Shown: positions 1,758 through 52,400 of the stretch, in pieces
How the letters are laid out: the number at the start of each line of letters is the position of its first letter
Numbering within the stretch: position 1 is the stretch's first letter
Assembly (NCBI GenBank): GCA_040954595.2
Contig: CM082578.2
Location: forward strand, 17,615,912 to 17,679,911
Reading direction: 5' to 3'
Source: Balanoglossus misakiensis
Taxonomy: Eukaryota > Animalia > Hemichordata
Length of the DNA: 64,000 nucleotides
Notes under the pieces: generated by a model
The model's input: the letters and a program-made list of their open reading frames with translations, nothing else
Database searches by the model: none
What the model was told of the DNA's origin: nothing
Translations under genes and position numbers: made by a program

Positions 1758-4700
1758 TCACTGATAATACATATCCGAGCACACAGGGAGTGTCTGTTGG
1801 TTAGTGAAACCAAAACTGATCCTGTTCTGTTGCAAAGCGAAGTCGCTGATAGAGTCGTTTGATGCCAGGCTGGCTCGGTCTTCGGGTTGCTCTACGGGCG
1901 GCACGTACACGAATTCCTGCGTCCAGGAAAAATCTTCTGGTTCAGGGGGACAGTTTGCAAACCGGTTGATGACCTTTGGCAGCGTGTACGGGTGTGCGTC
2001 GGCGGACTCGACGGCAGCACCGCTGGCACGGAGAAACCAGTCGGGGTCATCGGTGACGAGGGTTTTCATCGAGTGCACGGCTTGCCGTAGGGTCTGTCCT
2101 TCTCGGCTTTGTTCAAGCATCGCTGACAAGTCTGGAACCGCGTAGGTCGAGGTGGCCGACATTTCGGGGACGTTGTAAAGAGTGAGATAGAATCTTTCAA
2201 TCTGAGACAGCAACTTGAAGTGACTTCCCATCGACCTGAGCGGTTCTGGAATGTCACTCTCACTAGAATAATCGAAGACGACGGTGATGTATTTTCCTCG
2301 TCTTCCGCAGTCACCCCCGGCGAAATCCTGTGATATTATGTTGAGCGCAGGTACGAAGCAGCCTCTGTCGACAAACTCAAAGCTGTTTTCGTTTTTCTTC
2401 TTTTTTGACAGCCCTTGCTCCCAACACAGCCTGGTCCCTTTGGATGCAACCACTATGATTTTGTCAGATTCAACGAACTGTCGGAAAAGCCACGTGGTGA
2501 TACCTTCAACTGCAATGTCATTCTCATTCCACAGCCCTAGATTGACCTTGCATCCACACTTTGCGGACAGAAACCGGGCGAATGAATCCACGACCTTAGT
2601 GTGCCCGTGACAGTCCTCCTTATATAAAATTAGCAGTCGTGGATTTGCTTCTGTAAAGTATAGGCAGAAGAGAACAAGAGTCACAGTAGAGGAAATCACC
2701 ACCAGACAATATTGAAAGGTGACAGATTTGCCATTGTCGCGCCAAAACTACAAACATATGCATATCAGAACGGTTATCCCAGACATTTACCATTCGGACT
2801 GGGCGAGAGTACATGTAAATGTTCGATGGGGTTAATGTCTAAGGGTTAACTGTCCTAGAACCAAACATGCTATAAAACCACTAATCAAATCAAAGATGAA
2901 CGTACGATCACAACATACATACGCGGAGGAACAAATCAGAATGTTGTTGATTGTATCTTACCGGGTTTGAGAGGTGTACAAGTCAGCCTTACGACCCCGT
3001 TCTCGATAGGCTTCTCGTCGCGGTGAGATGCCTCCGCGCTCGACGACCGGCGTTGTCGTCGGTAGCAGTGCAGCATCACCAAAGCAAGGGCTACTGCAGC
3101 CAGCGAAGCGCAACTGATGGAAACGGCCAAGGTCATAACATCCTTGTCCGTGGCTGACCCCTTGCTGCCTCTCTGCTGGGCAGTCTCAATGCTCACCCCG
3201 GAAGTGAACGATGTTGCCGTCTGAGGCGCGGCTGAGGTTTTCTCCAGGCTTGCTCCTGACAAAGGGGACACATCAAGAAATTCAGCAAAAAAGACTGAGG
3301 CAAAATATATTTAAATTTGAACAATTTTCTCAACAGCAACATGGCAAAAGACAGGACCTGAGAAAAACCTACTTGTTCTTACAACTTACCTACGGCGCAG
3401 CTATTATTTATTGCAGTGTAACCGACGTCACAAAAGCACCGGTATCCGCCATAGCGATCGACAGTTTCGCACCGTCCGTGCTCACCACATTCGTTGATAG
3501 AACATGGGTCCCCTTTTTGAGAAAGAAATTTTGAATCAGAAAAAATACAAATGGCGATGCATGTACACACGCGAGGTAATTTTACTCAGCTACTTTATCC
3601 TATGATTCAAGACCTTCACAACTTCAGAACCAACTTTTTCTTTTAGTTTATCGATATTGTCTATGGTGTGAGTTTGCAATCCACTTGAAAAGCCAAGGTA
3701 TACTGCTGGACGGCCGAAGGGATTTGTCCGGACGCCCGGCTAGACTCTTGTTATATTGGAAGAGGAAAACGACACGATAAGAATATCTCACAGGAAAAAA
3801 ATGAATATTTTGATGGAAACGTGAGTTACAGCATGGATACTTGGAATTTGAACTGTACTTCACATACTGGTAACAGTGAAAGACCTTGAACGGCTTTGTC
3901 TGCAGACGTGTACACATTTGGACGCCGGTTTTGGTTGCACCTGTGGAAAATAGGGATAGACGATGAGAACGAGGCTTGCATGACCTATCTCTGACCTCGA
4001 CGTCACGATCGTCATGCAGCAGACGGGAAATTTCCATTAACTCCTCAAAGATGCCACATGTACGTGTCCCCGTCCTGGGCTAACTCCGGATACAGCAAAA
4101 AATTTACGAAAACAAACACTTTCGATGTGCCATGACGTACAGATGCATTTCCTACGATAAAATAAGTTCATCACTCACCATGACTTTGTAGGGTCGAGGC
4201 CCGACCTGAACACCTTCGAATTTGAATTGGATGATTTTATCGCACCCAGAACTCAGGTGGTACGTCAGATTGACGCCACCATTGCCGGTGATTTCCTTCG
4301 TTTGCCCGTCCACTAGAAATTCCTGCGGTGACGAGGAACAAGATGGCGATCATTTCGAAAACTTGAAGCCACAGATTTTTCCGGCTAATGTTTATGGAAA
4401 TTATTCACTATCGCTCGGAGGTGCGGATCATTAACAGATTGTCTGACTGTGCTGCTCGCCCCAACTTTGAACTTTAGCAGTCACGTACAACGCGTTAACG
4501 ACTCCTGCATCGAGCCCTACATCCATTCAGGTATAGATTCAAGTAAAGTGAAGACGATGCAATCAATGAATTCACTCACCTTGTCAATGCTATTTATAGA
4601 AATGGGTCTGTAACCGTCCATTATGCTTATGACGTAATTTTCGAATTCTAATTCCTCGGGAGACTCCAAAAAATAGCCGTAAACGGTTTGATAATACGTA

Positions 4701-7700
4701 GTGATGTTGATGTGTGTCTCCCATGAAGCCTGTGGTGGTTGATCTGTTTCGTAGGCAGGAAAAAAGAACATATAGGTATCCAATCATCCTTTCATGCTAC
4801 TGACAGTAAATTTTTTATCCCCCTCACTTTTGAGAAAGTTGTGTACTGTGTTCTAAATGTTGTACAACCACAGACAGAAAAAGGTACAACGTAAAACATA
4901 AAGTACGATTAAGTATATTTATATTTTTTTAAATTTTAATCATGCATGTGCAGTCGGTGAAACTCAGATGACAATTATAAAGCATAGACGGAACAAAGTA
5001 ACATATGTGTTTTGTAAATGAAAGAATGAATTAATTAATTAATTAATTAATCAATTAATTAATGGATGAGTAAATAGAGAACATTTACTAAACAAGTGAT
5101 TGAATGAATGAATTACTATAGCAAAATGTGAAATTCAATATTCTCACCTGAATCATTTTCTACGACTGTAGAAAACAACAGAAAGTGACATCAAATAAAC
5201 TTACACAATATGCTATTATATGAAGTGATTACAGCTCGCAACAACACAGAAAATAAATAACTTTATTTTACAAGACTTTATTCTCAAGAAACATCTCTGT
5301 AAGTTCAGTCACGTTATTACATCGCATTCATGGCATCAGTCATTCAAATCGTAATCAATCAATCAATCTACATGTACGTACCTTCATGAACGTTTTGGCG
5401 AATATGTTGTTCACCGTTTGATGGCAGTGTTCGAACTAAAAAGCTATAACGACCCGGAGTAATATCAGGAAAATTGTCAAAAGCCCAAGTTACCTGTGGG
5501 AAGGAAAGTACAACGATCAAAGTCATTGTCACAGAGAGAAGATTAGGGAATTAGTCGCTTTTGCTGTCTTCGCACTCAATTTTCCACAACGTTGCAGGCA
5601 GCCATTATGACCGTGGTTGGATGATTCATGACCGATTCTCAAAACCTCTCAAAAAAGAGGCAGTTACTCGTACACAGGTATCGAGATGATTCAACTTCAT
5701 GAAGCCTTTTAATAGAAGTTGACCTATTACCTGTCCGACTGGTCTTACACCCGGGTCAAATCCAGTGATGTTAAATGTGTAGCATATAGCCAGTCCCTGC
5801 GGGTAGCCACTTCCTCCAAGACCGTCCGTGTTCATAATTGCAAGCTGAATTCCCTTAACTCTTGTAATTTCTGCGTACGTGTAAAAATATGAACATTTAT
5901 GGTCAAGCCACTTGCGATTAAATCCAGTTCGGCGGAACCATTCTCACAAACCAGAGCTCTATTTGCGCTCCACGAAAATACATGTAAGGCACCTGTTGCC
6001 GTAAAGAGGCGTGTGGTTTACGACGATGGGCGGAACACCACAGCAAACCTCACAGTAAGCATCTTTTTCTCAAAATTCCTTCGACTGATGAACTCCGTTT
6101 CTTGTCAACAATCATTATTTGACTGTTGAGAACCGGACGATATCCGATCACGGTACTTACCGGCCGAGTTCAATTCGAAAGTGAGACGCACAGATTGTGG
6201 ACTTGGCGATAGGTGCACTTCCAATTGGCTTGGGTAGACCATGTAGGGTTGCACTGCTCCCGGGAAGACGGAGGGGCAGCCTGGCAGTGATTCTGCTGCT
6301 GGCAGCAAAACGTTGTAAGGCACAGATACGCGCATAGATATGAAACACATAAATTTGTCAATTCATGTATCGATCAGCCTGTGTATATACATGTACACAC
6401 GTGAGCTATAATCCGAAATGGCTGTCCACTGTGGTTACATTGGATCGTACATGTATCATGAATCATGACACAAACTGACATACATACGCACTTCATGCAT
6501 ATTATGTCTTTAACATTACAATCTGTAATTTTCTTCAAGGACAAAATCAGATGCCAATCATACATCTAGGTAGTTCTGCTGCATTCGATTGATTGATTGA
6601 TTGATTGATTTGATTGATTGATTGATTGATACGTGTGTTATCTCTTACCTAAACACTGGTCCGGGTTATACATCATGACGTCATCTCTTATTCCATGTAT
6701 GAAAGTTTGCGATCCATTTTGAATATTAGCACGAAGCTGTTATTTGAAGGAAAAAAGTGTGTGAAAAAAAGTTACATTGTATACCGTTCGCCCTGTCATA
6801 TATATCTGACCAGTATTTCCGAAGATTTTTTTTTATTTTTGACCATTTGACACTTAGCTGTATTTGCATATTATGCAACCGTCACTTTCATTTCAACAAA
6901 GTATACACCTGTGTATGCGCACCACATCTATCGATCGTGCATACTGGGGTGGTCGAGATTTTTGCATTGAAAAAATCCACAGACGATGTTTTCTAGGCGC
7001 CCACTGGCCAGGGAAGCATTGAACAATATTTATAGGCCAAGAACATGGCATCCGGATCACAACTGACCAATGACCTTTCCAGCTGTAAATAACCTTTGAC
7101 AGGAAATTCGTCTGGAATATGTTTCGGTTTAGACCAATTCCTAACTCTGCGAATTTCTCGTTTACATCGAAGCCGAGGGTGTCGGAATTGTCCTAAGGAT
7201 GCGACATACAAAATATATGCGCTTTCGAAGGAAGTTGTAAGGAGTTGGAATGTTCTGTTTGTAAAGACGATGTCCATCGTCCTACACTAACAGTGCGATC
7301 CGCGGCTTCTCTCCGCCGGACGATGGGCACCAAGACAATCAACCATGTTGAACAGTTCCCATCCTAAGTCCTTATATTCGTACACACCACGCCTTACTTG
7401 TTTCATGTGATAAACACGTTGAACCCCCAGTGTCCCTGCCATATTAAAAGATGGAAGCGCGGTCGATCTGAGAATCGCCTGGTACCAGGAAGAGTTCGCA
7501 GGGGCCCAGTAGGTCACAAAAGGGGAAACAAACAAGAGCCTGGAAAACAAGCTAAGAGTGTTTGTTGTTCGTGTGTGTGTGTGAAATCAAAGCTCCTTCA
7601 CTGTTCTTTCTCGCTAGTTTTAAATCTAGATTAGAGAAACTTGACATTTCTTTACAACTCTGCTAATGATAGACACGCAAGCAGATACAGGGGCTTTGGC

Positions 7701-24847: not shown

Positions 24848-24878
<31 letters not shown>

Positions 24879-28274: not shown

Positions 28275-31200
28275 TCAGAGATACGTGTCTTGTTCGTCGT
28301 CAGACGCACACTGATCAAAAACTCCGCTGTCTCTTTCTCGTTTGCCTGCATGTGGGACATTGTCCATTTTTTCTTCCAAGCAGTGGTTGACATGAATGAA
28401 TACGCCCGCTTCCCGGACATTCCCGGGAGAGGGTTCTTCGTCTGTGGAAAGAAACAATCAGATAAACCGTGAGAACACAAATAATGACTAAAGAATTTAA
28501 TAGGGAAAATAGACTAACATGGAACCCAAATATTGTTCACGTGAATGCGTTTCGTTTGAAAATCTGTGATTGGATATATACGATTTCCCCATGGAAACAG
28601 TAGTTAAATTTGCTTTAATGACCGTATACATAATTAATGGTCAGCCACAAACATAGATGTGAAAATGTACATTTTGAACAATTTGTTTTAGGCGTTTATT
28701 TTCCCAAGTACTTTTGGCTTTTGAGACAATTTCCAGTATTGTTTTGTTCATATTGTATGTGTGTATTCTGGCGCCTGGTTTCGAATGTCTTTTTGGTTTT
28801 CATACCCAAATACAACTCACTTAAATTTGGAATCCGAATAACGCAAATTGTAATACCCGCATTGTCTAAATAAAACGACTTAACCACTTATTTAATAAAA
28901 GTGATATTTATTACTTCATGATGAAACGTTTCATCATCAAGAAAACCACAGAAGCTGACGCACTCCACGATCAAAATCAACATAAACGGGACAATTATAT
29001 TCTATTGGCCACTTCAACTAGGGAAAACCTTGAAACGATTTATCAAGTTCAGATGATCCAATACTAATACAAGTTATCATCACCTTTGATGTCATGGCCG
29101 ATCTGTTGTGTTGTGAGTGAAGGGTCCTCCTCAACACTTTCTGTAACTTGCTTCGGTTTTCTATTCGGCTTCGCCCAAGCACTCACCGCGTTGGCCCGTG
29201 GGCGAGACCGCACGCGCATAGAGTTGGACCGGATCACGCTGAGTCTTTTACCGTACACAGAGGTTGGGCGACTCGTAGTCCTGGTCTCGACGACCCCCTT
29301 GTCTGTACACTGTGAGCTGTGAAGCGAAGTTGGTCCGACTTTCTCGGCTTCCGCGCTGTTTCCTCCGAGTCGTGCGCCGTTTCCTCGGCAGGTTCCCTTG
29401 TCACCGATGATGTCGCCGCGATTGTCGGCAACTACAATCGATTGTCGAACGATGCTCCGCCTGTGAACCGCTGTACCCCCGGATTTAGACACTCGGCTGA
29501 CCAGTTGACACTTGCCTATAACCATAAAAAATACAGCGGATTGCTACCAAGGGTGTTGAGTGACACGTGGATCGCAATTAACCTGTATTGACAGCACCTA
29601 TGCAAGATGCTAAAGAAAGTCGATACATGTATTTATTTGTGTATTCATGAAAATAAATAGATTTATCATATGAATCCAATCACATGAATCATAATCCGAA
29701 TCCGAAATTAACTGTTTGCTCCCACACCACCATCCATCCATCCATCCGTCCATCCATTCATGTCATCCATCCATCCATCCATCCACCCACCAATCCTACC
29801 ATTCTGTTCGTCACGGGCCACACGTTACGTACACATTTGTCAGCCTACCAAACGGTGAATTCTTGGCGAAGCCACCAGTCCGATATTAATGGCAACCCAC
29901 CCGCAGTCAATCAAGTACTTCAAGGATTAGCGACAACTTACTGTGCCCGACGGTGACATGTGTCCACTTGGCGGGGCTGAGTATATTTTGCTTTTCACCC
30001 TCGTACATCACCGACACTGAAATACGGTATTCACCCCGGGACAGGCATCCTCGTTCCCAGCTCTTAATAGAAGGGGACTTCATCACATCGCAGATAGGTG
30101 GCGAGGTATTCTTTCCCCCGATGCGGAGACACGTCACGTGGTACCCGGTGTGATTTGATATCGTTTCCGGCAGAGACCACCGTATGCGCACAGAATTCGA
30201 CGTCACGTTCAACACTTCAAGAGACTCGACTGGTTGGAATCCTGTAATTTTGATATTTGAAAGATTTACTTCGCTATAAGTTGTGGACAGATGTTTCATC
30301 GTTGTTTGAGAAAACTCCCAGAATGCACATGGATATTGCCCCTAATCAGCCCCCTGTAACAGGCGATCTTCATATACCATAACTTGGATCTGTTTACAAA
30401 AATATATATATATAACACAACTATTTGTTAAACACCACAAAAAATTAATGTATCCCCGAAAACGTAAAAGCAATTAGAAGACTCATTTTCAATTTAGTTT
30501 CTTGGCCGCCGAAAGGGTAATATCTTTAGAAACGTATGTTATATCGGTGGTGGCAAAATATGGGGTTTGTTTTAATCTCCCTCGCTTCCTGAAATTCTAC
30601 CCGCAATAAGTTGGTAAAATTGGGGTTAACGTACAGTGTACCAGGAAGTGCGTTAGAATGTTGTAACATGTGTCTATGAGGTGGGTTCTATAACAGGTGA
30701 GAGACTATGTTGTACAAGGAACCTGATCTGTTTATTAAGAAGGCGCATGCCTACCGGGAAATGACACTGGAACAAAGAGAGACTCCTCGCTGAGCTTTGA
30801 ATTCAACTTCGGTTTCTGAGCATCATCAGACTTGTCTGTCGCGGATACATGTTTTTCGCCATCGTCAGGGTCATGGTCATCCTCTGAACTCGGAGACTCG
30901 TTATCGTCTTCGTCGAATTCTTTGCATAATTTGCTGTATTCTTCTTGTGAGACGGTCACTTTTACACGAACGTCTCTCCCCTTGGCAATTCTCTTCACAT
31001 CTTCGTTAATCAGGAGTTTTTGGAGGATCTCTTCCAATTCGCCTGTTTGACTGTCTTTATACAACCGCTGCAAACCCGGTTTGTTCTTGACTTTCAAAAA
31101 CAAGAGTATGCAGCCGATTTTGAGATCGCTGATGTCGACCGAGTACTTTTTGTCCAGCGTAGCGTCGTGAGTTAAGCGTAGCCGACCTTTAACTATGTAC

Positions 31201-34200
31201 TCTTCGATATCTTTCACTGTGGATTCGCCGTCGCTTGAATCTTCGCCCGAATCTGAATCCAATTGAACTATCTCTACCACCACCCTCAGGGTTTTCGGCT
31301 TGCCACCTGGAAATGAAGAGAAAAGTGTCAAGCGATAATATACAATGATAATAGTCAAACAGAGATATACACAGACAGATTTTAAAACAAGAAACCCTAT
31401 AAACTGGCATCACTACATGCCTGACCTCTACACATGGACGAGTGTGAGTAACCAAACCATTATACCATATGAAATTTACCTGTTGTCTTCGCGTACCGTA
31501 CCGCTACCGTTTTTTGACTTCCTGAAAAAATAAGAAAAAATACCTGCATCATTTCCATTCATCATCCCTAAAGCAGTTTATCATAAAATAATTTACAATG
31601 TGGTCCACATAATCTCCAGCTTTTTGTTCCTGCATTGAGTTTAGAACTACATGATTATAGTTTTTTGCGTCGAATTCAGTACAAAGCGTACTACTAGTAT
31701 ATTCGAATAACATCCTAATGAGTGTGCATTGAACCTACCTGCCTGGTGATCAGGTGTGATCGACTTTTCGGCAGATTCCAATAGTTCAAACAGATGCGGA
31801 TAAGGATCCCTAAGAGATTCTTTAAATTTCTCATAGACAGCATCGGTTGGCGGGAGTTCACTCAAAAGGCGGCGGGCTTTACCGCGCATGGTCGGCTCGG
31901 CCATGATGACGTCATACGCCGAACGACTAATGGCGTCTTCTTGCAAGAGGTGGTCTAACACGTACTTCACTTGTAAATCCTGAACAATTTTAGTCAAATT
32001 CTGTCTCACGGGACCAACATAGTCTTTAGTTGCTAGTTGTCTGTAATGTTCCAACAAATCGGCATTTTCCAGATCCAATCTTCCCCCATCCGCTGTGAGC
32101 ACATTTGTTAACTTGTTCACTTTGTTGAAGAAAACCTTCTCTTCCAAGATGCCATCATAATACTTCTTCTTAATGACTCCTTTTTCATACAGCGCGTCCA
32201 AATAACCATCAAAGTCCGCTGAAATAAGGAAAGGAATTATGTGAAAATTCTTTACTGTGTTGTCCCTAAAAGTGCCCTTAACAGCTTACTCACTGAGGCT
32301 ATGAGCACAACACCACACACCATATCACACACGTGTAGATATTTTGATCACCTCTAAGCTACCGTGCACTATCTGTACAAACCTGGACAAAGGGCCCCGT
32401 GGGTTTCCGTCCATTCTGGCTCCCCACTCTCCGTAAAACAGGCAGAATCATGCTCAACGACATTGGTGCTTTTGCCCTTCCGCGGGAATTTTTTGCTGAT
32501 TCTTTTCCGGTCATGCGCACTGGAGCGTCGTCTGCTCGTGTAGCGACGTGTGACGGTGCTGAACCCACCAAAAGAAATCGCTTTCCGAGTTTTAACACCT
32601 TCGCCCAAGACGTCGATACCCGAGTCTCTGTGTGAATATTGCCAGTCTGTCTCGTTCTCCAGGCCGCTGTTCTTATCTGTTGGTCAAAAGAGTTGATTTT
32701 ATTATCATATTGGTTAACATACTCAGTCATACCGCCAGTCTCAGATAATCACTGTGACATTTTGGATACCAATGACAACAGTAATGTAAACTCATACACA
32801 GAAATCACAAACGTTGTAATTCAAACATGCACATATACGCAGATTCACAAATAAAACTCGATGCAGCTTAACTAAATTCGGCCCATAAGACTAAAAATTG
32901 TAATGTTGGTCTACGGTTTACCTTTAGTGGGACCATTTGTACCTCCACCGGTCGTGACACTGGCCGCTTGACAACCTGTAGCCCCCTCCACAATCCCAGA
33001 GTCGCGGTCTTTGTTTGGACATTTCATTTCAAGGCTTGGTTCTGGTTCTGTTGAGGAATCGGTTTTCAAAGGGGAGCCCGTTTAGTATTTCTCATCGAGA
33101 TCGCTGTTTTCTTATATGCAAATTCCTTCTACCGTGGTGTTTAAGTATATTGCGGTATTTGCATTTCCTACCTGACTTGGAAAGTCCCTGTGAGTCAGTG
33201 TCCAAGACTACAAAGGCTTCCACAATAATTCAGACATCGGCTCAACTTCCGCAAAGTCGGTCAACTGTGACTACCCTTGCCACAGTAGCCATGTTTTGAC
33301 CACGAAGGAGGAACTTAAAAGTTTCAACTCACTACGATCAGCAACTTTAACAATAATTTGGGACTCAAGAAATGTTTAAAAAAATAATACTAGTATTTGC
33401 CGTCAGTTTTTAAAACCCAAAATAATTCTACTATCATGATGACAGACTTGAAGTTAAATTGTAAGCTCACAAGACGAAAAGAGAGGCTCGTGATATGGTG
33501 TGTCGTGTCCCCCATAAAAATAGTTTGTTTATCAGCCACTATAAGCCATAGGTGACTGCTCTTTCTGAATTATTGGTCACGTGATAATGACGTCACTCTT
33601 TACAGTTGCTTCTTTCCTCCTGAGAAGGAAATGTTTAGATTCATTCACACACCATCATTTGACGTCAAGTGTGACGAGCACTTTCCTCGTGATCTATATT
33701 GAACCTGTCAGAACAGTGCTTGGCTCTTTACACACTTTGGGACACTTACTGTCTCTTTGCAAACATTAATACACTCACGCAGTACACACAGATTGCATAA
33801 TTTCGAGCGTGGTTTCACTGCCCTGGTAAGTTAGCAGTTTTTTTCATACGCTACTGCACGTAATCATTTAACGCTGGGAAAGTGACTATCACCGAGTACA
33901 ACAAGCATTGTGTCTATGTCATACAGAACTAAAATGGGTAGAAGACAATTGCGACATTTTGTCCACAAACGACAAGATATTGAAAGAGGAAGTAAAGCGT
34001 TGACCGGTGGACTATTGACGACAGCGCAATTGTCTTCCTACAATGCCATTTTACATCACAGAAGAATAGCCGTCTTTGCAGTCGCATATGCCATGACGTT
34101 GCACCATTTTACTGTGATCAGCTGAATTCTTTGACGGCGTTTGTCGATGAGTAATCGACTACTACTTCCCCATTTTAGCATCGTCCAGATAACACCGCTT

Positions 34201-36353: not shown

Positions 36354-39300
36354 TCACGTGTTCAAACCACTATTTTGAGTATTGCAAATCGTGGACTGTT
36401 CTAAATTCAGCTTCATTGCGAAGTTACTGGAGACTGTTGATGCAATGCTGCGATTGTCCGAGTCCCCGTGATATGCAAAGTCTGCATTATTTGGGGCGCC
36501 CTCAACAGGACATGTGACATCACAAGTATCTGTTGGTTCAATGCGGACCGAGTGTTCGTGCGCATCACCGGCTTGTTGGAGATGCATTGCGTTCAGACTT
36601 TCTGGAAACTGAACGAATGTCGGTGGGTCATCAGAGAGTTGTGGCGACGAACATTCTGAAAAGTATCCCGTGTCGGGTTGACTTGGCGGGACGTGGTATT
36701 CAACGGGTGTGGCAACTCCGTTACACCGATGTGGTTTTTCTGCGTACTGCATCTCGTGAGAATCACCGGGACCTCGACACTGTGGCCGACTCGGCGTGTT
36801 TTCATCCACCCCAAACGAGTCGGTCAACAGTGCAGTACCTGCACTATGGTTTCTATCTGCTGTGAGATTATTATTTAAGATCGTGTGTCCAATTATTCCG
36901 TTTTGCGCGGCTTCAAGTCGTACATCAAGGTCGTCGCACCTGGGATTATCAAACCAGTCAGGGCAGTTACCCACGTGAGTTTTCACTTTTCCGATGGTGG
37001 CCAGCAAACCCTTTCCCTCGGAGGTGTTGTTAAGAAGATTCTTGAATCCCTCCACCTTGCGATGACCTCCGGCTGACCCCAGAGAAAGATTTCGGAGATA
37101 AATGTACAACTCTTCAAGATCTTTCGGCACTTTAAATGACTTACTTGAGATGTATTTTGCTACATCCGGGATATACTTGGCTTCGGAATACCCCGGTATA
37201 TTGAAGTGAACGTTGATGTACTTCTTGAGACGCTCGGAGTTGGAACTGAGGTCGGCTCGCATGACGCTCAACGCCACCGAAAACAGGTAATTGTCTGCCT
37301 GGTCTGAGTTGAGTCTGTGCGTCTCTTCGTCTGGTGATGTGGATGAATTCTCGCTCTGCGTTCCCCTGGAAGCGATGACGACAATTTTGTCCGCTCGATT
37401 CATTTGATCTATGACCCAGTCTGTCACGCTTACTGCAACTCTGCTCGATTCCCAGTAGTCGAAGACGACCTTGCAGCAAAGCACAATTTCCAGGAATACA
37501 GCGAAACTCTGCACCAGATCCATGTGCAGATCAGAATCCTTGGTGTACAGCAGGAGAACAGATGGGTTTGCTATTCCTGGACAATAAAATTAAACCAGAA
37601 AAAAAGGTTGATATCAAAAACATTAGTTCCAATGCAACACCAATCACGATATAGACTGGCGTTTCTCGATCCAAATACATGCATTTGGGGTTTATTTCCT
37701 TCAGCCTGTTGTAGTCTTTAATGTTGGCACAACCATAGACAGTTGCTAAATCATCTGTCAATGAATTGTAAAGTCATAATTGCAACCAAGGAATAATTCC
37801 ACTGACCTTCGATGTCATGTCTCTGTTGATCATTCAACCTAGAATCCGGTACTGCGATTGGTAGCGCTAAAAGTTGGAAGGAGAGAAAATACCCAGATTT
37901 TTAGATCTAACTATAGAATGAACAAATTGTTCAACAACCGTGATGATATGAGAGAGCTATAGAGCGGTAATTGTTAATTTTTAATGAGAAATTATCATCG
38001 CATAGACTAAAATTAAGACTTTGTAAGCTAGAACCTTGAAAATGTTTGACTTTGTAGGCTGTATAACGTAAGAACCACGATTTTTCGGAAAGAACCACGG
38101 CTATGCATGAAACTGCCTATCTAAGAACATGTACGTTACCAATTATAAAAGAAAATGAATCAGATCAATAACGGTTACACAGTAAGGTGCATGTCTGTGA
38201 GGAAAATGGCAAATAAATACTCGTATTTCTTTTTTTCAAACGGTTCAGCATTTCAACATAACTTAATTGAACCAACAATGTACAAACAAAGCGCTTTAAC
38301 ACGGGCCCGTTATTTCGACAGTTGGTATAATGTATACTTACGTTTTTGGCGAAACTTCCAATAACACACCGCTGCGACAAGTATAAGGCAAAGCGCACCA
38401 AACACGCCAGTAGGAGCGGCTATAATCTTTCCCGGATCTGTACCGGGACCTGTGTCGGAAGAGATCAAGTACAGAAAATAAAATGTTGTCCAGTAAAATC
38501 GCACCTGAACGATGGTAATTTTAAAGCTAGTCGATATGAGACAAGAAATCGGTTCAAATCGCTCAAAGTTTATTTTTTCAGCTATCCACACTGACGTCTC
38601 CAAGTCAGAAATAAACACCATCGTAGTCTTTTCCTACTTATTGAATATTTGCGCGATTAATTTAAGCAAAAAGGGGGGAATTTGACTCACCACCACCTAA
38701 CAGGATACAGATTCCATCACGGTAGGCGTGACCAGTGGAACAACTGCAGTAATACGCATGCTCGGTTCGAACGCAGTCTCCCATCACACACGGATCATGC
38801 AAACAGTGGTCCTCTGCAATGAAAGAAAATAAAATAGTTTAGGTGAGTTTTTAGAGTGTGCTTAATAGCCGAAGTTGAGCAGGAAACGTTAGAATCGTAA
38901 CAAGCAGGTTGGGTGAAAACAGGTATACATGTACATGTACATTGTTGTCCCGCCACAAGATGGCAAAAGATGGTCATGCGGTAGTAAGAGAAGGAATGAC
39001 TGAAGCTATTTTAGCGCCTAAATACACTTCAATATGGACATAAAGCTTCCGTTGGGGTATATAGTGAAACTGTATATAATGATCAAGTTGCTTGCCTTTG
39101 CATGTGTAATCTTCGAAATAGTACCCGTATGTACAGTTGCACGTGTAGTGCGTGGCATTTACCGACGCACAGGTGTGGTTAGCACCGCATGGCTCAGATA
39201 GGCATACGTCTCTGTCTGCAATCAAAGGGAAATGTACTGCTTGAGCTAATGGGGTCAATATCAATAACCCTCATACCAGGTCACTTTGTAGAAAACACAC

Positions 39301-42300
39301 TATAAGAAGATTCATCTAGTTGATCAAATCTTAGTGAGCTCACTATCCGACTATAGTTTCGTCGACGCCACATCCACCCAACTAAACGCTGGCTTTATAA
39401 ACCTACACCATTTATTTCTCGCAGGTCTAACAGAACAACGATTTCGTTGAAACCATTAATTAATTAAGACGGAAGGCAGAAGAAAATAGAGGTGGTTGTG
39501 GAGGAGTAGTAGTAGAAGAATGGGCCAAACAATGTTTTTAGGTCACCCTTTATTCATAGTCAGTGAACCATAAATGCAAACAATTTCTGTCGTGTTCTCT
39601 TAAAATACAGAAACGAAAGAAAGGTGTGTAGAGTACGCCTATGAACACTCATTTAGTAGTCGTATATATAAACATTGCTGTCGCTTATGGGCGCCTTTCT
39701 CTACCTATACCCATTATGTTATATCCAGCCGGTGGTTTGACTCGTGCAAATACTGTCACAACAACCAATTCAAAATTTGCTCCAGGATATTGTGTTTCGT
39801 TTCTTCTAAGGCAATGCCTAAAAGTCGCTTACCTAAAACTTCAAATTCACCGCTAACGGTGGTTCTACACGAAGAGATGACTTTGCTTTGGATGTGACAC
39901 GCAGACGCTGGTACAGGCTCTACCTGGATGCAAGATGTAAAATCAGCCATTTTATTCACAGCATCATTAAATACGTCTTAACCATAAGTTCCTGAGATTA
40001 CATTTCTTACGATTGCCAATACGGAAAATTACGTATTCTGGCCAAACTATTAAGAACTGTATTCCGTGAAATAGTAGTACATGTAATACAATTGGTATTT
40101 GTCCCTCGAATGCCAAAACCACATAACTTCGTCGTTGTGACCACAGAACAGGTGAAGCCAGAATTAATCTTACCTTTACGCAATAATTTCTTGATTCAAA
40201 ATACTTCTTAAAAGTGTATTCAAAGAACGTATATGCATGGCCATCAACTGTTTCATTGTAAATCTTGACATCGCTGTCATTCTGTGTGATAATCAGAAAT
40301 TTATGCATTGGAAATAAGATTAGGACATCGATGCTAATCCATCAAAGCGCACTGAACGGGATCTTTTTGCCAGTTGCCTTTTTGTACATTCTAATACGAT
40401 ACTCTGTGATCCAAATACTTTGCAATTCCAATACGATTCGTATGCAAGAACCAGTAATCACCTTGAACACCGTGCTCTGACGTACAAACGTTGAGCACGG
40501 AAACCCTTCCTTGTCGCTGTCATACTTGTGGACGTTGATGGAGTACGCGTTCAAACCGTAACTATCGGGAGGAAGGTCAAAGGTGACTCTAATCGTGTTG
40601 TAGGTGGGAGACGACGGAGTCAAATACACCGGTTGCCAATAGGATGCCTCTTCTGAAAAATAAGACAATGTTGTTCAATATATATTTTGTTGTAAGAATA
40701 GCTTCTAAGGTTTATTCAATGATGAATGTCGAAAAACTGATTTATTGATAACTTACCTCCTGGTTTGACTAGGCATTCTGCAATCTGGCTAATTCTGGGA
40801 TCACCACAAGCTGCAGATCAATAAATATTATATCGTGATCCATATATGACTAAGGGCCTACCGTTAAACAAGGATTCTGTTGAATAACTGAAAACACACA
40901 ATCTATTCGCACGGGACAACAAAGACAAACTCACATGGTGTTAACAAGCGATGACTGATTTGTGTCGACGTTGGGCCAATCTTTCCGTCCGGGGAGGTCT
41001 CATGCGTGACCGGTAAGATTCGAACCACCAGCTGGTACTCGCTGTACGGAGCCAGCGGTGGAAAGCAGTCGAAGAAAAAAGAGAGGTGTCGACCCTGTGG
41101 GCGAAAAAAATGTACGTGCGTTTGCATCACTGAAAAGATGTTTATGATAACACATACGAGAATGCTACAGAACAAACCGAGTTCATATTTACTGACATTT
41201 ACAGCCAACAGGTAGAAAGTAAAAATCTACGCGTTGACGTAAAAATTACAACGCGGCGCGGAAGACACTGCGGAAAATACTCACGTCAACGTTCCTGTAG
41301 TCATTCCCGGTCAAATTGAAAGTAACACATCTCTGTTGGTTGTAGTAGTTGTATTCGTATTCCGTGTGATGGGTCAGTCCACTCAGTAACAAATGGACAC
41401 CCACGGGATTGTCTGAAACGGGAAGAGAAGTGGGAAATATAATGGGTACTGTCTACACGCTGTTTTGATTAACCATACAGTATGCGTGTCACCGACTTTG
41501 TAAACTGAAAAAAATAAATCGGTAATCGGATTCCTTGAAATCCAAAAGAGGTCATAGAACAGGCACATGTTTCACCTCGCGTTTCATGAAATAATAACGC
41601 AGTCTACCGACATCGAAATGAATGCTATTGTGAAATCGATCGATGTATTTCGGCCATTCATATTCATTAAATAGTCAACACAGATTTAGCAAATCGCAAG
41701 ATTTATTTGACGGAGATTCAGTCACTATCAAATTATAGGCCCAGCCAACGTGATTCCATCAAAGTACATTGATCATGCTCTGATATCACAATTCGACCCA
41801 TAATACATCGTAAAGAGCAATGAATAATGCTGTCACTCTCCTAATGAATGCCGCGAGCTATTCTGTATAGTTGGTATATACTTACTTTGGAATGTATCAA
41901 TGGTCCAAGACATGTTGAGTATGATGTGTGTCTCTGTTACATTATCAGCTGTGACTCCAGTGATTGTGTCCCACATGGCCTCAAAGTTTCTGGGTTTATC
42001 AGGAATGTCTGTCCATGGTACTGGGTCTCCTATATCTACACACTTTGACCCTGTAATATTATTTCAATACATGTAGTCTGCAAAGTTTACTGGCAATTTG
42101 CATTAAGCTCTTCGAAATAAGAAGGTAGAGAACTTGCCGGGAATAATCATTTATGAAAACGAATTAATAACCTTACCACTTTGGATGACGTCACACGTGA
42201 CTTCTCCATGTGTCATCTGAAATGGACACAAAAAAGAAATCAGGGCTAAAACATTTTACATCTTAGCAAAATAGCTGAGATCGCTCCTTGTACGGCAAAA

Positions 42301-43418
42301 ACGGAAAATGTGTATTTTTGCAGTGTAGTTGTGATGATGTACGTTTCGGGGCATGAAGAATTGTCTTTCCATCGATTGAGGACAACGCCATGATGAAAGG
42401 CACATCTTGAACCACATGTCACGATCTAAATAACTTTCGTTTCTGTTCACCGTGTTCCGAAACAGTTCTTAATTCTTATTTTGTATGCGACATTTTATTC
42501 ATTTGTCTCTCTTTATTGCTCGTAGGTTTACGCGACCCCATTTTACTTCTCAGCGAAAGTCCAGGAAAACTCACTGGAAATCGCCTGCTAAAACGCCATG
42601 AGTCTGCCATTTGTGGTTTTCGGTCATGTCAGTCCGACATATGATTAATTTGATTATATTTAGCTACCAATAATACTATCTAATACCAATCAATGATCTG
42701 GGCAAACATGATAAACCAATAATTGGTTTGAAGTATAGCCAACGTGATGACCACACGGCAAACATTCCCTGATAGAGAGCAAGTTCTTGTTGAAGGCCAT
42801 TCGGGGCGATTTGAATTTTAAGGAAATGATGAATAATTTATGAAGTCTAAAAAGCTAGTCACGTTCACAACACCACATATGGATTTCAGGATGCTATTTC
42901 CTGGTTCATTATCTGTGACACCATGTTTCGTGGAGTTAATCGAGAGGTATTACCAAACATTAGCGTGTCGCTCCTTTAAACGTCTTCATGGGGGAACAGT
43001 CTAAATATAACTGGGATGTCGTTTTATACGATTTATGAGTTAAGCGACGTCAACAATGCAAGCCATCTGACCGGTGCATTCATCACCTGCCGTCGAATAG
43101 TCTGTCAATAGTGTTCGCAGCGCAGCAACCAGCGCAGTTAATAAATACACGTGTGATCACCTATGCTGCGCAACCTGTTTTTGTTATTGTCACTTTTGTC
43201 AACAAAAATAACGACGAACGCCAACCGGATTTCTTTCCGTGGCTTCTCTCCGATAACAATGAAAGGGCAGCCGGACGTCTTTTTACCTGCTGTGAACACT
43301 TTCCCAACCGTTGACGAATACAAGGTCGCTCCCAGCTCAATTCTTCTCTACAATGTACGACGCACGCCAATGTCAAGACCAGAAATTCACCAAGACCCAC
43401 ATTATTAAGTCCAGCCAT
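36354..43418 (-). CDS. IL-17 receptor-like gene C: signal peptide, FnIII-like ectodomain, 2 EGF, TM, SEFIR, long tail
   Basis: Phase-consistent exons: 43418-43287 (MAGLNNVGLGEFLVLTLACVVHC), 42216-42177, 42050-41886, 41412-41285, 41094-40935, 40810-40757, 40652-40462, 40281-40174, 39923-39833, 39215-39096 (EGF), 38813-38691 (EGF), 38449-38342 (TM IIAAPTGVFGALCLILVAAVCYW), 37866-37807 and 37576-36354 (SEFIR PSVLLLYTKDSDLHMDLVQSFAVFL, ADKIVVIASRGT, KYINVHF). Confidence 0.88.
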
Positions 43419-46401: not shown

Positions 46402-49400
46402 TCAAAGCAGCATAACTCCACCTTGCTCTTGCTGCTGAACTATAGGGTCTGTGCTTCCACTGTGAGTGGAATTATAGTCACTGGTAGAGTTGATTGCATT
46501 AGATGTTGAATTTTGCATGTTAAGGCTCAAAATAAAGGACCCATTTGAGTCACTGGAAGCAACACTGGTGGCATCCGCTTCTGGTATTACATCGTGCATT
46601 GTATGATTGTACGGTGCCTGTGTTGGGGGCTGATCCCAGTAATTCGAGCGTTCAGAGGTTGGTGAAAAGTCTTCCGTCGAGTAATATCCTGTGTCAATCT
46701 GGTTTGACTTGGGGGGATCTGTGCTGGATTCTGTCTCCCCATCTAGTCGAGTTTGCTGTTCTGGGATTTTCACCTTCCGGGATGACAGCCGTCGCTTGCT
46801 GCGTGGCTTCGGGACAGGGTCAGCGTCACTCGGGTGGTACTCTGCATTCATGTAACTAACATCACTGCCATTGTGATTGGTATCAGCTGTCATGCTGGGT
46901 TTTTTACCATTGGCTTGGTGATTTTCACCCTTGGATACAGGGAAGCCATTCATGACAACAGTGCTGTTGGGATGGTTGACGTACGTCACATTGGGCGCAT
47001 TATTCAGTGAAACAGCCGGGTGGGCGTCGCCGCTGGTTTGGAGAAGATCGTACCACTGTGGGTTGCTGCTGACGTGGCTTTGGATGTCCGCAATGCTTTT
47101 GTACAAGTTCTTGCCTTCCTTACTGTTTTTCATGTCACTGAATCCCTCCACTTGTCGGTGGCCCACAGGTGATCCCAAGGCCAGACCGCGCAGGTGAATG
47201 TAGAAGTGCTCCATCTTGTCCGGAAGCTTGAAGGTTTTCCCTGCCAGAACTTTGGACACCTCGGGAATGTGCTGCTGTTCTGAATAACCGGGGATGTCAA
47301 AATAAACATTGACATACTTGTTCAGGGGGATCAGACTTTTTTCCCCAGATACTGCGGCAGACTTCATCAAGCCCACCGCATACGAAAACAAACCATTATC
47401 CTCTCCCGTTTGACGAAGAGTTTGGGTTCCTCTCGACCCAATGATGACAATTTTGTTGGCTTGCTTCATCTCCTCGGTGATCCACTCTGTCATATCAGCT
47501 GCTACCGTGTTTGTTTCCCAGTAGTCAAACCTGACTACACACTGCAGCTGGCAATCAAGGAAGGCGGCAAAACTCTGCACCAGATTTTTGTGATTGTCGC
47601 CATCTTCAGAATAGAGAAGCAACACTCTCGGATTTCCAATGCCTGGAAGACATGAGACAAAAATAACTGACATAACGGTGGCAAAGTCGCTTTCTTTTAA
47701 AACCAATTTGGCGATTCATGTTCCTACATGTATGTATGCCCACTCATGGATTGATTCTGCTACAAGCAAACAAACAAACAAACAAGCAAGCAAGCAAGCA
47801 AGCAAGCAAACAAACAAACAGAAAAAAAATGAAGAAAAACCCACCTTCAACACTATCTGAATATCTACCACCTTTATGAGGAACTTTAATCAGAGCTGAG
47901 AATAGAAACAGAAAAAGTTCTAACATCATTATCACTAGCAACAAATTAAAGTAAAATATATATAATATTATATAATTAATGACATCAAAACAGTCCCAAC
48001 AATCATTATCATTCAAGGTTAAAGCAAATGAAATCATCGTTGACGGGAATGAAAGCCCTATTATTGTGTCCTTCATTTTGCACAGTTGAATCCCCACGCC
48101 CTCTAACAAGAAGTAACATGGCTGTGAGCCAAAACAGCATTACATGCATATTTGTACTTACGGTTAGTTACTTTCTTCCAATAACAGAATGCTAAGATGA
48201 CAATTAAAGCTGCAGCTATAAGTGAGCCCAGAACAGCTACTACAATAAGCACTGGATCTGTAACTGTGTGTGAATCAAAAGAAAATATTTCAAATCCTTG
48301 GAGCTGTAATTTTTTTGCATTTTGACCTTGAAACAAAAATCCCTACGATTGTTGAAGATATGTTTTGCATCCCATCATTAATCCACATTACTTTTCAAAA
48401 TGTTCAGTTAATCAAATTCAGGTGCTTATATGGATTTTGTGTACTCACTGATGGAAGAAATTGCTGATATGCTATAAAGTGACAATTCTGGCATGTATCG
48501 TATAGTGACTGAAGTTCTGTGTCCTCTTCTTGGCAGTCATATCAATATTTGACTTGAGGCTAGTGACTTGACTCCACGGAGCAAATAATATGGCCTAGTG
48601 GAAAGAGTTGGTGTGGCTGTGTATAGTCACACTAGCTGTTCTTACCTTGAGTACACTCGTAATCCATGTACGCATAGCCATTAGAACAGTTGCAGAAGTA
48701 ACTATCCTCCAGTCTAATGCACTCACCAAATTCTCCACATGTTACATCAAAGCAAAAGTCCACTGGAAAGCAATGATTTTTACATTTTATTACAGTATAT
48801 TAGTTAGCCTGGAAAATCCGTCAAAATGAGCAGACATGAGAGGGATTTTCCAGCCATTTATTTTAACAGTTGAACAGTCTCTCATTTCTTGGATTCTAGT
48901 CTTTTTCACTGATGACACACACACTGGATGATGACTATTTTGACCAAAAATGACAGGAACTTTCTGGCAAAATACAAATTGGCCGGTTTCGTCCAAGTCT
49001 GAACAAGTGCTGACTTAATTAAAATAATCCCAGTGAACCTGGTATACTAGTACATATCCATTTAAGGCTGTTTTGACAAGTTGTTTTAAAGAAGTTGAAG
49101 AAGATGACGGATTGGCCGGGTAACAAAAGTCAAACTGACAATCAAGATATCTTGCATATATGCTCCACATTGCAGATGGCTGACTTGCCTACCTTTACAG
49201 GTGATTTCAAAATAGTATCCTTCTGTGCAGTTGCACCAATAGTATGTGCTGTTCCATGATGAACAATTACCATGTTTCCCACACGGATCAGATAAGCATG
49301 GGTCCGCTGTGATGGGAAGAGCAGGGGGGGAGTTAGAGACAGTGATGTAGAGCACAGTAATGTGCATAACAAAGAAACAACTACCATATTTAACATTGGT

Positions 49401-52400
49401 CTGACCTTTCAAAATTGAATGTCAGCATTTTCTACCAAAGACATTTCATGTTAGCAAGAATGATCAAGTCAAACCAACTTTTTCATGCAAATCCAAATAT
49501 TTAGCTAAAGTTATCATTTTATAAGTGCCTCGCCAGCCCTCTCAACAACTTCATTTAAATGCAACAGTAATTTTTATTTGTTTGACTTACGTTTGCATGT
49601 GCCATCTTCAGCATAAGCATTCTTAGAACAGTTGCATGTATACTGGGTGGTGTTAAGCACCGGAATACACACACCCATTTCATCTCCACCACAGGGTTCC
49701 CAGTAACAGCTATCAACTGAGTGGAAACAAAAACACATACAAAAGATCTCATACAAGCGAGTAATAAAATGATTAGACACAGTCCCCAGGGGCCACAGCT
49801 ACAGCAAAGAACCCCCCCCCCCCCCCCCCCCCCCAGTGTGTGGTTTGGTGTTTAGGGGGTTCTGACCAAGATAGCGCCCTCTGTAATCATTTTTGTTACG
49901 GCTTTTGTTTACCATGGGAAATAGTGCTCTTGGAGACCACTTTTTTAGTATGCATGAACTTTGAACAAATCCACATAAAATGGTAAAGGACTCCAAAAGT
50001 TTTAATCAACAGCTTGAATGGTGAAACAACAATTCTCAGAAACAGATTTCACAACTACATGAAAGCGCTATAGCACCTCTTATCCCACTCAAGCCCTATT
50101 CGTTCATGCGGCCCCAAAACTACCACTAAATCAAGTTTTCCAAATCTGCTTTTGATATTAAACTACAGATTGCATGGCCACCCAATATATATTTCCCTCT
50201 TTAAGCACATTTTACCCTCAGTTGTGTTTTGGTGATCTAAAATTGGTATCGACAGACATACCAGCTTGGCACCCATTGTTTTTTTTTAAAGTTTATCAAT
50301 ATCATTTTGTTGCTTAGAAACTATCTGTAAACAAATGAATTATCAGCTGGCAAGTTACAATAGTAATAAGGGTTATGGTAAAAAAGACTTCAGCTATAAA
50401 CCAGCCAGAGTTGCAATTTGCATATATTCCTAAATTCAGGTCAAGGGCCCACAAAATATTACCAAAGGGTATCTCCTGTGTCTAGATATTTATACACATG
50501 ACCTGTTTTCTGAGGATATGACTCATCATTTCGTAAGAACTCCATTGTAAATCTGTGACACAACACAGGTCATAAAACTGACCTCTGGATAGTTTATTTG
50601 GCAGGACCGTCAAGTGGTACAAAGTATCATGTGAGAAGAAAAGCAGCCATGCATGTTATAATATGATCAAACAAAAAGCTAACCTCTGGCGCAATTCCTA
50701 ACTGATAATCTGATAAGTTGATGGATTTTTTCAACACCTATGCTTTGACCCATACAGAAGGATCCTATAAATCTAATGCTTCATCCTTTTTATATAGGTC
50801 TTTTACACTATTTATGACAATTTGTTGTAATTAGGTCAACATATCCAAACCTTTTAACAAGTTTACATTATTTTATACATTTTGCCATATTAACCTATAA
50901 ATACAAAGTACCTTGGTGTATTAGAGAGACTATACTTCCACTTCTGCAATACACTGACTATTCAAACACAGACAAAAACAGTCCTCACACGCTCCTTTCA
51001 AGTTGCTATAACAGCAACTTCTTTTTCAGAATATCAGAGTTTCACATCCACTTATGAGACACTCTCCACAGAGACAAGTCATCAGAAAACACCTGCTTGA
51101 GTTTACATGGGGAGGGTTTTAGACTAAAGCTTTAAAAGAACCACATTTTCATTACTTTTCAACATATTTTAGAAAGCAGTTATTTTCTGATAGTTCAATA
51201 AACAATTTCATAAACAAAATATATATGTCAATTTAGAACAAATTGTCCAATTTGGTGTTTGAGTGCGTGAGTTGAGGTAAACACTTCAAATACACTTCCT
51301 TTATTCATTTATGGGAATACCATATGAGAAATATTGACAAGTCTTCCCATTTTCCATTGACATATGATCTCATGTGATCGCTGTGAACAACCTTTCACCC
51401 CTTCTTCTGTATGTGGTTCAACCCATGCCATTGTAAAAAAACAATAGGACTGATCCAAATGGTGGTGGGAAAGGGTTTTAGATCAACTGACTTTGTGCCA
51501 GTTCCGGTAAATAGAGAACTTTACTAAATCACATAATCACCTCTAAATTGATGAGAATAAAATAGAATAAAACAAGCACAAATTCGTTAGACAATTGTAC
51601 TGCTATTAAAAATGGCAGAAACTTCTCGAAGCAACTAATTATCATGCAGTTGCAGTAATTATGTTGTGCCACTTCCCAATTTACAATTTGCATATATTTG
51701 CTTAGTTTAGCAATGGTGCCTTTTGGAGATTTCAAATGGACATGTATGCATGGTGTAAATGTATAGTCTACAACATTCAACAGGTGGTTTATAGACAGCT
51801 TAGAGGCTTGTGCAGACAGCTCTCCTAGTTTTCAGTTATACTCTGATTAGTTTTAAATTAGGAAAAGGCTTTGATACATATATAGCTATAGCCACTGTGA
51901 CTTAAAATGAATGATATGAACATCTGATGGGAAATTAAACAAATCAAAGTCTTGAGTGACATTTAGATTTAGAGAAAGATTATGAGATGGAGAAGTTCCA
52001 GTTGGAAAACATTTTCAATAAACATCTGCTGGCAGTGCAGCTGGCTATCTTGTCAGTTTATTGACACTTCAAAGATCTTCTCAAATCTCAAGGACAGTTG
52101 ATAAAGATGTAAATTACCTAGACAAGTTGGGTATGTTGTGGGATAAGGTATATAGCCAGGTTCGCAGTCACATTCATAGAAATCCTCATCATGAAATCCA
52201 GTACAGTTGCCATGGTACCCACACGGGTCACTTTCACATGGATCATCTGACAAAAGACAAAAATGGAGAGAAGAAAAGAGAGTTAGTCACGATTGGCATG
52301 GAAAAGTTGTTGCTGATGGGAATTTCACGGGTAAATGTAGGGAAATTCCCTTCTTATGAAAATGAGCAGAAGGGTGCGCCTATGGCCAATGACTGGCTTT

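What the first reader, a model, noticed from the sequence alone, without database searches (positions are those of the whole stretch)
3390..52246. IL-17R-like ectodomains with a variable EGF stalk (1, 2 and 4 EGF exons)
Seen: six-Cys EGF exons between the FnIII-like region and the TM. B has one (3512-3390), C two (39215-39096, 38813-38691) and D four (52246-52118, 49716-49591, 49306-49193, 48762-48646); two of these are absent from the ORF track. All are symmetric phase 1-1 exons. D-EGF3 (PCLSDPCG..NSTYYWCNCTEGYYFEITCK) pairs with C-EGF1 (VCLSEPCG..NATHYTCNCTYGYYFEDYTCK). Established: vertebrate IL17RA-E lack EGF repeats. Inference: stalk height is tuned by exon duplication or skipping, which may set receptor pairing or allow shedding.
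Basis: partly seen in the sequence, partly recalled or inferred. Interest (0 to 1): 0.7.

Follow-up and report, generated by a model that had tools for sequence, protein, structure and literature searches.

The report
Acorn-worm IL-17 receptors on EGF stalks
This animal, likely an acorn worm, has a cluster of interleukin-17 receptor genes whose outer parts stand on one, two or four small EGF modules; such stalks are also found in other acorn worms, starfish and feather stars, were briefly noted in print, and likely act as fixed spacers rather than a splicing switch.

Summary
All seven six-Cys EGF exons are at the stated coordinates, are phase 1-1, and fit open gene models B, C and D (double FnIII, 1/2/4 EGF, TM, SEFIR). 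The architecture is not special to this genome. Of the 150 best SEFIR relatives, 17 carry EGF at the same place, and all 17 are named hemichordate or echinoderm proteins (1-4 repeats). Chen et al., PNAS 2024 (PMC11087794) mentions EGF-bearing IL-17Rs in one sentence, and four of its listed ambulacrarian receptors carry EGF here. Copy number changes by exon duplication or loss: D (4) and C (2) match Ptychodera flava repeat for repeat, while B has 1 against 2. Skipping has no support: 0 of 6 annotated isoform sets differ in EGF count, and the splice sites are not weak. Shedding as a growth factor and a height code for pairing are unsupported. Best reading: a conserved, genomically fixed spacer. 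Side lead: a P. flava isoform splices C's ectodomain to a non-SEFIR tail whose exons also lie in this window. The scan's earlier notes held nothing on this.

The parts
360..1256 (+). Receptor A, SEFIR exon; the ectodomain lies outside the window
   Evidence: Pfam SEFIR E 7e-12; 55% to P. flava XP_070559430, which has 1 EGF
1758..6298 (-). Receptor B: 10 exons (6298-6161, 5870-5749, 5493-5382, 5165-5148, 4743-4580, 4322-4179, 3940-3868, EGF, TM 3255-2962, SEFIR 2650-1758); first exon(s) not found
   Evidence: Open spliced model with AG/GT sites; SEFIR E 3e-29; SEFIR exon 72% to P. flava XP_070559433
3390..3512 (-). B-EGF1 exon, phase 1-1
   Evidence: Pfam EGF E 2e-5
36354..43418 (-). Receptor C: 14 exons, 901 aa (signal-like start, double FnIII, 2 EGF, TM 38449-38342, juxtamembrane 37866-37807, SEFIR 37576-36354)
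   Evidence: SEFIR E 2e-21; orthologue P. flava XP_070559424 with 2 EGF
39096..39215 (-). C-EGF1 exon, phase 1-1, GC donor
   Evidence: 62% to P. flava orthologue EGF1
38691..38813 (-). C-EGF2 exon, phase 1-1
   Evidence: Pfam EGF E 0.008
46402..60588 (-). Receptor D: 16 exons, 977 aa (signal-like start, double FnIII, 4 EGF, TM 48263-48162, juxtamembrane 47895-47845, SEFIR 47642-46402)
   Evidence: SEFIR E 2e-18; counterpart P. flava XP_070559420 with 4 EGF
52118..52246 (-). D-EGF1 exon, phase 1-1
   Evidence: 72% to P. flava XP_070559420 EGF1
49591..49716 (-). D-EGF2 exon, phase 1-1
   Evidence: 70% to P. flava EGF2
49193..49306 (-). D-EGF3 exon, phase 1-1; paralogous to C-EGF1
   Evidence: 66% to P. 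flava EGF3
48646..48762 (-). D-EGF4 exon, phase 1-1; paralogous to C-EGF2
   Evidence: Pfam EGF E 4e-5; 45% to P. flava EGF4
28275..32218 (-). Exons downstream of C (double CARD 32218-31739; TRADD-N-like 31306-30755; FN3 30241-29942; 29515-29084; 28441-28275), all with phase-1 acceptors. The last four are homologous to the alternative cytoplasmic tail of the P. flava C-orthologue isoform X1
   Evidence: the splice to C is not shown for this species

Best explanation
B, C and D are tandem IL-17-receptor-family genes (double FnIII, EGF stalk, one transmembrane segment, SEFIR) of what is likely an acorn worm, and their 1, 2 and 4 EGF exons are a gene-fixed version of a stalk shared with other hemichordates and echinoderms that likely acts as a passive spacer holding the predicted IL-17-binding head above the membrane. 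Shown: the exons, their phases and the open models; the same EGF position and Cys spacing in 17 named hemichordate and echinoderm receptors; repeat-for-repeat match of C and D with P. flava; different counts between some orthologues. Inferred: one EGF exon entered the phase-1 intron after the second FnIII domain in an ambulacrarian ancestor and was then duplicated or lost in frame many times. Also inferred: the short-linked, disulfide-bonded, N-glycosylated repeats set head height and the spacing of the TM and SEFIR parts. Ligand binding by the FnIII pair and SEFIR-adaptor signalling are carried over from vertebrate and sea-urchin work and are untested here.
For: Gene models share one exon-phase pattern, with the EGF block in the same intron position. 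An AlphaFold2 model of the P. flava C-orthologue shows two beta-sandwiches, two EGF-sized units (pLDDT 80-87), a TM helix and SEFIR. Its top PDB matches are IL-17RA ectodomains (E 2e-13). 17 of the 150 best SEFIR hits carry EGF, and all 17 are named hemichordates (9) or echinoderms (8). Pfam found EGF in 0 of 35 and 0 of 34 of the other full-ectodomain hits. 32 of 42 repeats share a 10-residue C5-C6 loop. D's repeats are 45-72% identical to P. flava, about as conserved as its FnIII exons (43-78%), which points to purifying selection. In C and D only 6-13 residues separate the last Cys from the TM window. Crinoid receptors add 1 or 4 HYR domains after the EGF, so other modules can fill the same slot. 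In human complexes the spacing of membrane-proximal domains is proposed to matter for signalling (PMC9477748, passages).
Against: No transcript or protein evidence exists for this species, and no ligand or pairing test was possible. The count drifts between close relatives: B 1 vs 2; Acanthaster 2 vs Patiria 3; the unnamed P0050 has 0 beside Saccoglossus 3; P0062 has 0 beside Antedon 1. This fits neutral drift as well as tuning. Hemichordate and echinoderm receptors do not form one supported clade on the SEFIR tree, so a single origin rests on position and Cys spacing alone. The same tree puts D with C and XP_070559424 (0.906), not with XP_070559420, against the one-to-one EGF match. The folding alignment included vertebrate IL-17RA-type rows, which can lean the model towards IL-17RA. 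Only 150 of 728 hits were examined.
Confidence: 0.7

Rival explanations
1. Neutral accordion: one EGF is enough or dispensable, and the number drifts because phase 1-1 exons duplicate and drop out in frame with little effect on signalling.
For: Counts differ between orthologues (B 1 vs 2; Acanthaster 2 vs Patiria 3), and two relatives have none. Recent within-gene duplicates exist in Saccoglossus and P. flava. Human IL-17RC (D1-D4) pairs with IL-17RA (D1-D2).
Against: D's four and C's two repeats match P. flava one to one, at FnIII-level identity.
Confidence: 0.35
2. Height code: paralogues pair or exclude each other according to matched stalk length, so EGF number sets which heteromers signal.
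For: Paralogues in one cluster differ in a stable way (D 4, C 2 in two species). IL-17R signalling uses tip-to-tip D1 contacts, and membrane-proximal spacing is proposed to matter. C and D share a near-identical D1 exon.
Against: No direct test. Height mismatch is tolerated in human IL-17RA/RC. B's count is not conserved.
Confidence: 0.15
3. Regulated exon skipping makes short- and long-stalk isoforms of one gene.
For: All 7 exons are symmetric, so skipping keeps the frame. C-EGF1 has a GC donor, ranked 38 of 41, and the acceptors of B-EGF1 and D-EGF4 rank 41 and 38 of 43.
Against: 0 of 6 annotated isoform sets (13 proteins) differ in EGF count. The P. flava B isoform that shortens the stalk drops a 21-aa Ser/Thr linker, not an EGF. 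As a group the EGF splice sites are not weaker (p 0.79 donors, 0.96 acceptors). Many non-EGF exons of these genes are also 1-1. The isoform sets seen are incomplete.
Confidence: 0.12
4. The EGF repeats are shed and act as growth-factor-like ligands, or bind a partner protein.
For: B has a 41-residue Ser/Thr/Pro-rich linker between EGF and TM. Some repeats carry recalled Notch-type O-glucose or O-fucose consensus sites (C-EGF1, D-EGF1, D-EGF3).
Against: 0 of 42 repeats end in the recalled G-x-R-C EGFR-ligand motif, and C5-C6 loops are 9-13 residues rather than the recalled 8. The glycosylation motifs are not kept in all orthologous repeats. In C and D the stalk sits 6-13 residues from the TM.
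Confidence: 0.07

Closest known systems
EGF-containing invertebrate IL-17 receptors noted in PMC11087794 (PNAS 2024, Fig. 1D; Dataset S1 lists Saccoglossus XP_006812313, Asterias XP_033642397 and XP_033647239, Anneissia XP_033102961)
   Same: Double FnIII, EGF, TM and SEFIR. Those four listed accessions carry 3, 3, 3 and 1 EGF in my scans.
   Different: As worded, the sentence gives EGF to cnidarians and IgSF to ambulacrarians ('respectively'); my data put EGF in ambulacrarians (Fig. 1 not seen; cnidarians not tested). The passages I read say nothing on repeat number, exon structure or function.
Ptychodera flava receptor cluster (RefSeq XP_070559420, 424, 430, 431-434, 440/441, 442)
   Same: Counterparts of D, C, A and B with neighbouring accession numbers on one contig length; 4, 2, 1 and 2 EGF, plus paralogues with 1 and 3.
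   Different: B has 1 EGF here against 2. The near-identity of C and D exon 3 is seen only in the window (91% vs 53% amino acid).
Human IL-17RA, IL-17RB, IL-17RC (PDB 4hsa, 7uwm, 7uwn, 6hg4; PMC9477748)
   Same: FnIII-pair ectodomain and SEFIR fold. IL-17RC also has extra membrane-proximal domains, D3-D4.
   Different: No EGF repeats: 0 of 69 non-EGF full-ectodomain hits, which include shark and lamprey IL-17RA, had a Pfam EGF.
Sea urchin SpIL17R1 and SpIL17R2 (PMC5457136)
   Same: Ambulacrarian SEFIR receptors with long ectodomains (535 and 662 aa) and 16-17 exons; R1 acts in the gut immune response.
   Different: The ectodomain modules were not annotated ('egf' 0 occurrences). The alternatively spliced exon reported there lies between TM and SEFIR.

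Membership tests
IL-17 receptor family | Cytoplasmic SEFIR domain | tested here: met
   Pfam PF08357 above cut-off for A, B, C and D
IL-17 receptor family | Tandem FnIII-like ectodomain (D1-D2) | tested here: met
   Model of the P. flava C-orthologue best matches IL-17RA ectodomains (the alignment held IL-17RA-type rows). Window exons give only weak Ig_ILCR1 hits. Relatives hit IL17R_fnIII_D1 or Ig_ILCR1, mostly below cut-off.
IL-17 receptor family | Single transmembrane segment between ectodomain and SEFIR | tested here: met
   One hydrophobic segment in each TM exon of B, C and D; helix 439-468 in the orthologue model
IL-17 receptor family | N-terminal signal peptide | tested here: inconclusive
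   C and D begin with a hydrophobic stretch (judged by eye; no predictor run). B's first exon was not found.
IL-17 receptor family | Binds a cystine-knot IL-17 dimer and recruits Act1/CIKS through SEFIR | not testable with these tools
   No genome or ligand sequence of this species was available
EGF-like domain | Six Cys with C4-x-C5 spacing in a unit of about 35-45 aa, encoded by a class 1-1 exon | tested here: met
   7 of 7 by pattern and phase. Pfam EGF for 3 of 7. Weak PDB sequence hits of a relative's repeat to P-selectin and Notch EGF (E 0.018, 0.41).
EGFR-ligand type EGF | G-x-R-C end and 8-residue C5-C6 loop (recalled) | tested here: not met
   0 of 42 repeats have the motif; loops are 9-13 residues
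Calcium-binding EGF | Acidic consensus before the first Cys (Pfam EGF_CA) | tested here: inconclusive
   No EGF_CA hit among 45 window ORFs or 19 relatives; no dedicated motif test was run

The most novel reading that the evidence does not exclude
The cluster is a modular receptor kit at both ends. EGF number is a selected height code that decides which paralogues pair. Receptor C also switches its cytoplasmic tail by alternative last exons, from SEFIR to a TRADD-N-like/FN3 tail (with an optional in-phase double-CARD exon), so one IL-17-type head could drive either SEFIR signalling or a decoy or death-fold output. The tail switch is annotated as an isoform in P. flava, and the homologous in-phase exons lie 4-8 kb behind C in this window.
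Probability: 0.12. Interest if true: 0.65.

Novelty: new member of a known kind. Interest (0 to 1): 0.3.

Why it matters
It gives an exon-level history for a clade-wide variant of the IL-17 receptor that the papers I read mention in only one sentence, and it suggests that the EGF stalk belongs to ambulacrarians rather than to cnidarians as that sentence is worded. Natural paralogues with 0-4 repeats are a ready series for testing whether ectodomain height or transmembrane spacing controls IL-17R signalling, a question raised by the human tip-to-tip structures. The architecture itself is not new and no function was shown, so interest is modest. The alternative-tail lead would matter more if confirmed.

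Tried and rejected
No whole genome is held for the window, so ligands and other receptors of this species could not be searched. No RNA holder was listed; this says nothing about expression. A word-index search with D's SEFIR among long proteins found none of 287 candidates; the profile searches worked. Degenerate extra EGF exons in the introns were sought by profile and by blastn, and none was found. A tree of ten repeats was too short to resolve (most supports 22-60), so pairings rest on pairwise scores. One loose-pattern EGF hit in P0048 was dropped as a false positive: it is an IL-17RA-like D2 Cys cluster, absent from the strict scan and from Pfam. The protein atlas did not answer, and the VIA structural alignment was busy. 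No complex was predicted, because no ligand of this species was at hand. Literature searches for EGF with SEFIR or IL-17R in invertebrates gave only PMC11087794 as relevant; the sea-anemone paper names SEFIR only in its abbreviations. Subscription journals and figures are not covered. The scan's earlier notes held nothing on this.
Full report
Observation. The seven exons are present at the stated minus-strand coordinates. Each is a multiple of three bases long, encodes one six-Cys repeat and has an AG acceptor; six donors are GT and that of C-EGF1 is GC. Pattern scans of all six frames found only these seven. A profile search found no decayed extra copy: the best site outside the seven exons scored 5 bits against 42-55 (the profile includes the seven). 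Pfam called EGF for 3 of the 7 at E<=0.05 and SEFIR for the last exons of A, B, C and D.

Anatomy. Spliced models are open from end to end: B 693 aa without its N-terminus, C 901 aa, D 977 aa. Upstream of the EGF block all three follow the same phase series (1-1, 1-0, 0-1, 1-1, 1-0, 0-0, 0-1). Then come the 1-1 EGF exon(s), a 1-1 TM exon and the SEFIR exon, so the stalk occupies one homologous intron position. An AlphaFold2 model of the P. flava orthologue of C, built on a 36-row alignment, shows two beta-sandwiches, two EGF-sized units, a TM helix and SEFIR. Its best PDB matches are IL-17RA ectodomains. The alignment included vertebrate IL-17RA-type rows, which may lean the model that way. 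The window's own spliced proteins were not folded.

Origin of the window. The closest named relatives are Ptychodera flava proteins (72% over B's SEFIR exon) with neighbouring accession numbers. Window A-D fall in one clade with the named hemichordate receptors (support 0.989). An enteropneust hemichordate other than P. flava is inferred.

Spread of the architecture. A profile of the four window SEFIR regions found 728 proteins at E<=0.001, of which the best 150 were examined. 17 of the 150 carry EGF before the TM. All 17 are named: P. flava (6), Glandiceps (2), Saccoglossus (1), starfish (5) and crinoids (3). 85 of the 150 have a TM and at least 200 residues before it; 16 of these have EGF, and the other 69 had no Pfam EGF (0 of 35 and 0 of 34). 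Only four of those 69 were named (shark, lamprey, two tunicates). Counts run from 1 to 4. Two unnamed proteins that group with Saccoglossus and Antedon receptors have none. Crinoid receptors add 1 or 4 HYR domains after the EGF. The first repeat follows the second FnIII domain directly, and 32 of 42 repeats share a 10-residue C5-C6 loop. A single ambulacrarian origin is inferred from this; the SEFIR tree does not show it.

How the number changes. D matches P. flava XP_070559420 repeat for repeat (72, 70, 66, 45%), and C matches XP_070559424 (62, 41%). D's FnIII exons are 43-78% identical to the same protein. The 4 and 2 states therefore predate the split of the two species and are conserved. 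Against clean orthology, the SEFIR tree groups D with C and XP_070559424 (0.906). D-EGF3 and D-EGF4 correspond to C-EGF1 and C-EGF2, and D-EGF1 and D-EGF2 are closest to the C-EGF1/D-EGF3 type (42-47% outside the Cys). B has one repeat and its P. flava orthologue two. Acanthaster has two where the Patiria orthologue has three, and Saccoglossus repeats 1 and 2 are each other's best match. Exon duplication and loss are thus well supported.

Skipping and shedding. 0 of 6 annotated isoform sets (13 proteins) differ in EGF count. The P. flava B isoform with a shorter stalk lacks a 21-residue linker, not an EGF. These sets are incomplete: isoforms X2-X3 of the C orthologue and X1-X4 of one Acanthaster locus were not seen, and clustering could have separated skipped forms. 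Leave-one-out splice scores of the EGF exons do not differ from those of other exons (p 0.79 and 0.96), though the GC donor and two acceptors rank low. 0 of 42 repeats have the G-x-R-C end that I recall for EGFR ligands. C and D leave 6-13 residues before the TM window; B leaves 41.

Mechanism. By analogy with human complexes, the FnIII pair would bind an IL-17 dimer, and SEFIR domains would then recruit an adaptor. Those structures use tip-to-tip D1 contacts, and the authors propose that membrane-proximal spacing matters (PMC9477748, passages). A stalk of short-linked, N-glycosylated EGF units (0-3 sequons per repeat) would raise the head and change that spacing. This step is inferred. Human IL-17RC with D3-D4 still pairs with IL-17RA, so a strict height code is not required. 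I give the fixed-spacer reading 0.7; neutral drift in number is compatible with it in part.

What is in print. PMC11087794 says that some IL-17Rs of cnidarians and of ambulacrarians incorporate EGF and IgSF domains 'respectively' (passages; section 5; Fig. 1 not seen). I saw 60 of the 94 IL-17R rows of its dataset. Of the 12 ambulacrarian rows among them, 4 are in my set and all 4 carry EGF; the other 8 were not examined. Its two supplements held as text contain no 'EGF'. PMC5457136 (passages) describes long sea-urchin ectodomains without naming modules. PMC8353272 (passages) covers mussel receptors. Searches listed no paper on repeat number or exon history; subscription journals are not covered.

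Side lead. A P. flava protein named isoform X1 is identical to the C orthologue through the juxtamembrane segment but ends in a non-SEFIR tail with an FN3 domain. The homologous exons lie at 31306-28275 in the window, behind a double-CARD exon; all are phase 1 and so compatible with C's donor at 37807. Here they probably form a gene of their own, and the P. flava form may be read-through. This was not tested.

Verdict. The feature is real. It is a new member of a clade-wide, briefly published IL-17R variant. Duplication is supported; skipping, shedding and a pairing code are not. Interest 0.3.

Noticed in passing
window 32218-28275 (-), downstream of receptor C; P0180: A P. flava isoform joins the C-type ectodomain and TM to a TRADD-N-like + FN3 + acidic tail instead of SEFIR. 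The homologous exons, plus an in-phase double-CARD exon, are in the window, so C could have alternative cytoplasmic tails.
   Followed up: partly
window 42050-41886 and 56165-56007 (-): Exon 3 of C and of D (start of FnIII D1) is 96% identical in DNA over 169 bp, while other exons are 67-86% and the flanking introns do not align. The P. flava pair is only 53% identical in protein there. This suggests exon-limited gene conversion in this lineage.
   Followed up: partly
window 17880-16521 (-) and 23537-24930 (+): Two genes between B and C have a divergent SEFIR-like exon followed by a CARD exon, an adaptor-like order unlike the Death-SEFIR layout of CIKS. The plus-strand one is followed by an FN3 exon at about 25428-25841 that resembles the tail above.
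   Followed up: partly
P0058, P0072 (crinoids): Crinoid SEFIR receptors carry 1 or 4 HYR domains between the EGF and the TM, a second kind of variable stalk.
   Followed up: no
window 39096 (-): C-EGF1 uses a GC donor where the paralogous D-EGF3 has GT.
   Followed up: partly
window 6300-10900 (-): B's signal-peptide exon was not found; a candidate 33-nt exon lies at 9719-9687.
   Followed up: partly
window 10930-14072 (+): An unrelated multi-exon gene without a Pfam hit sits between B and the SEFIR-CARD genes.
   Followed up: no
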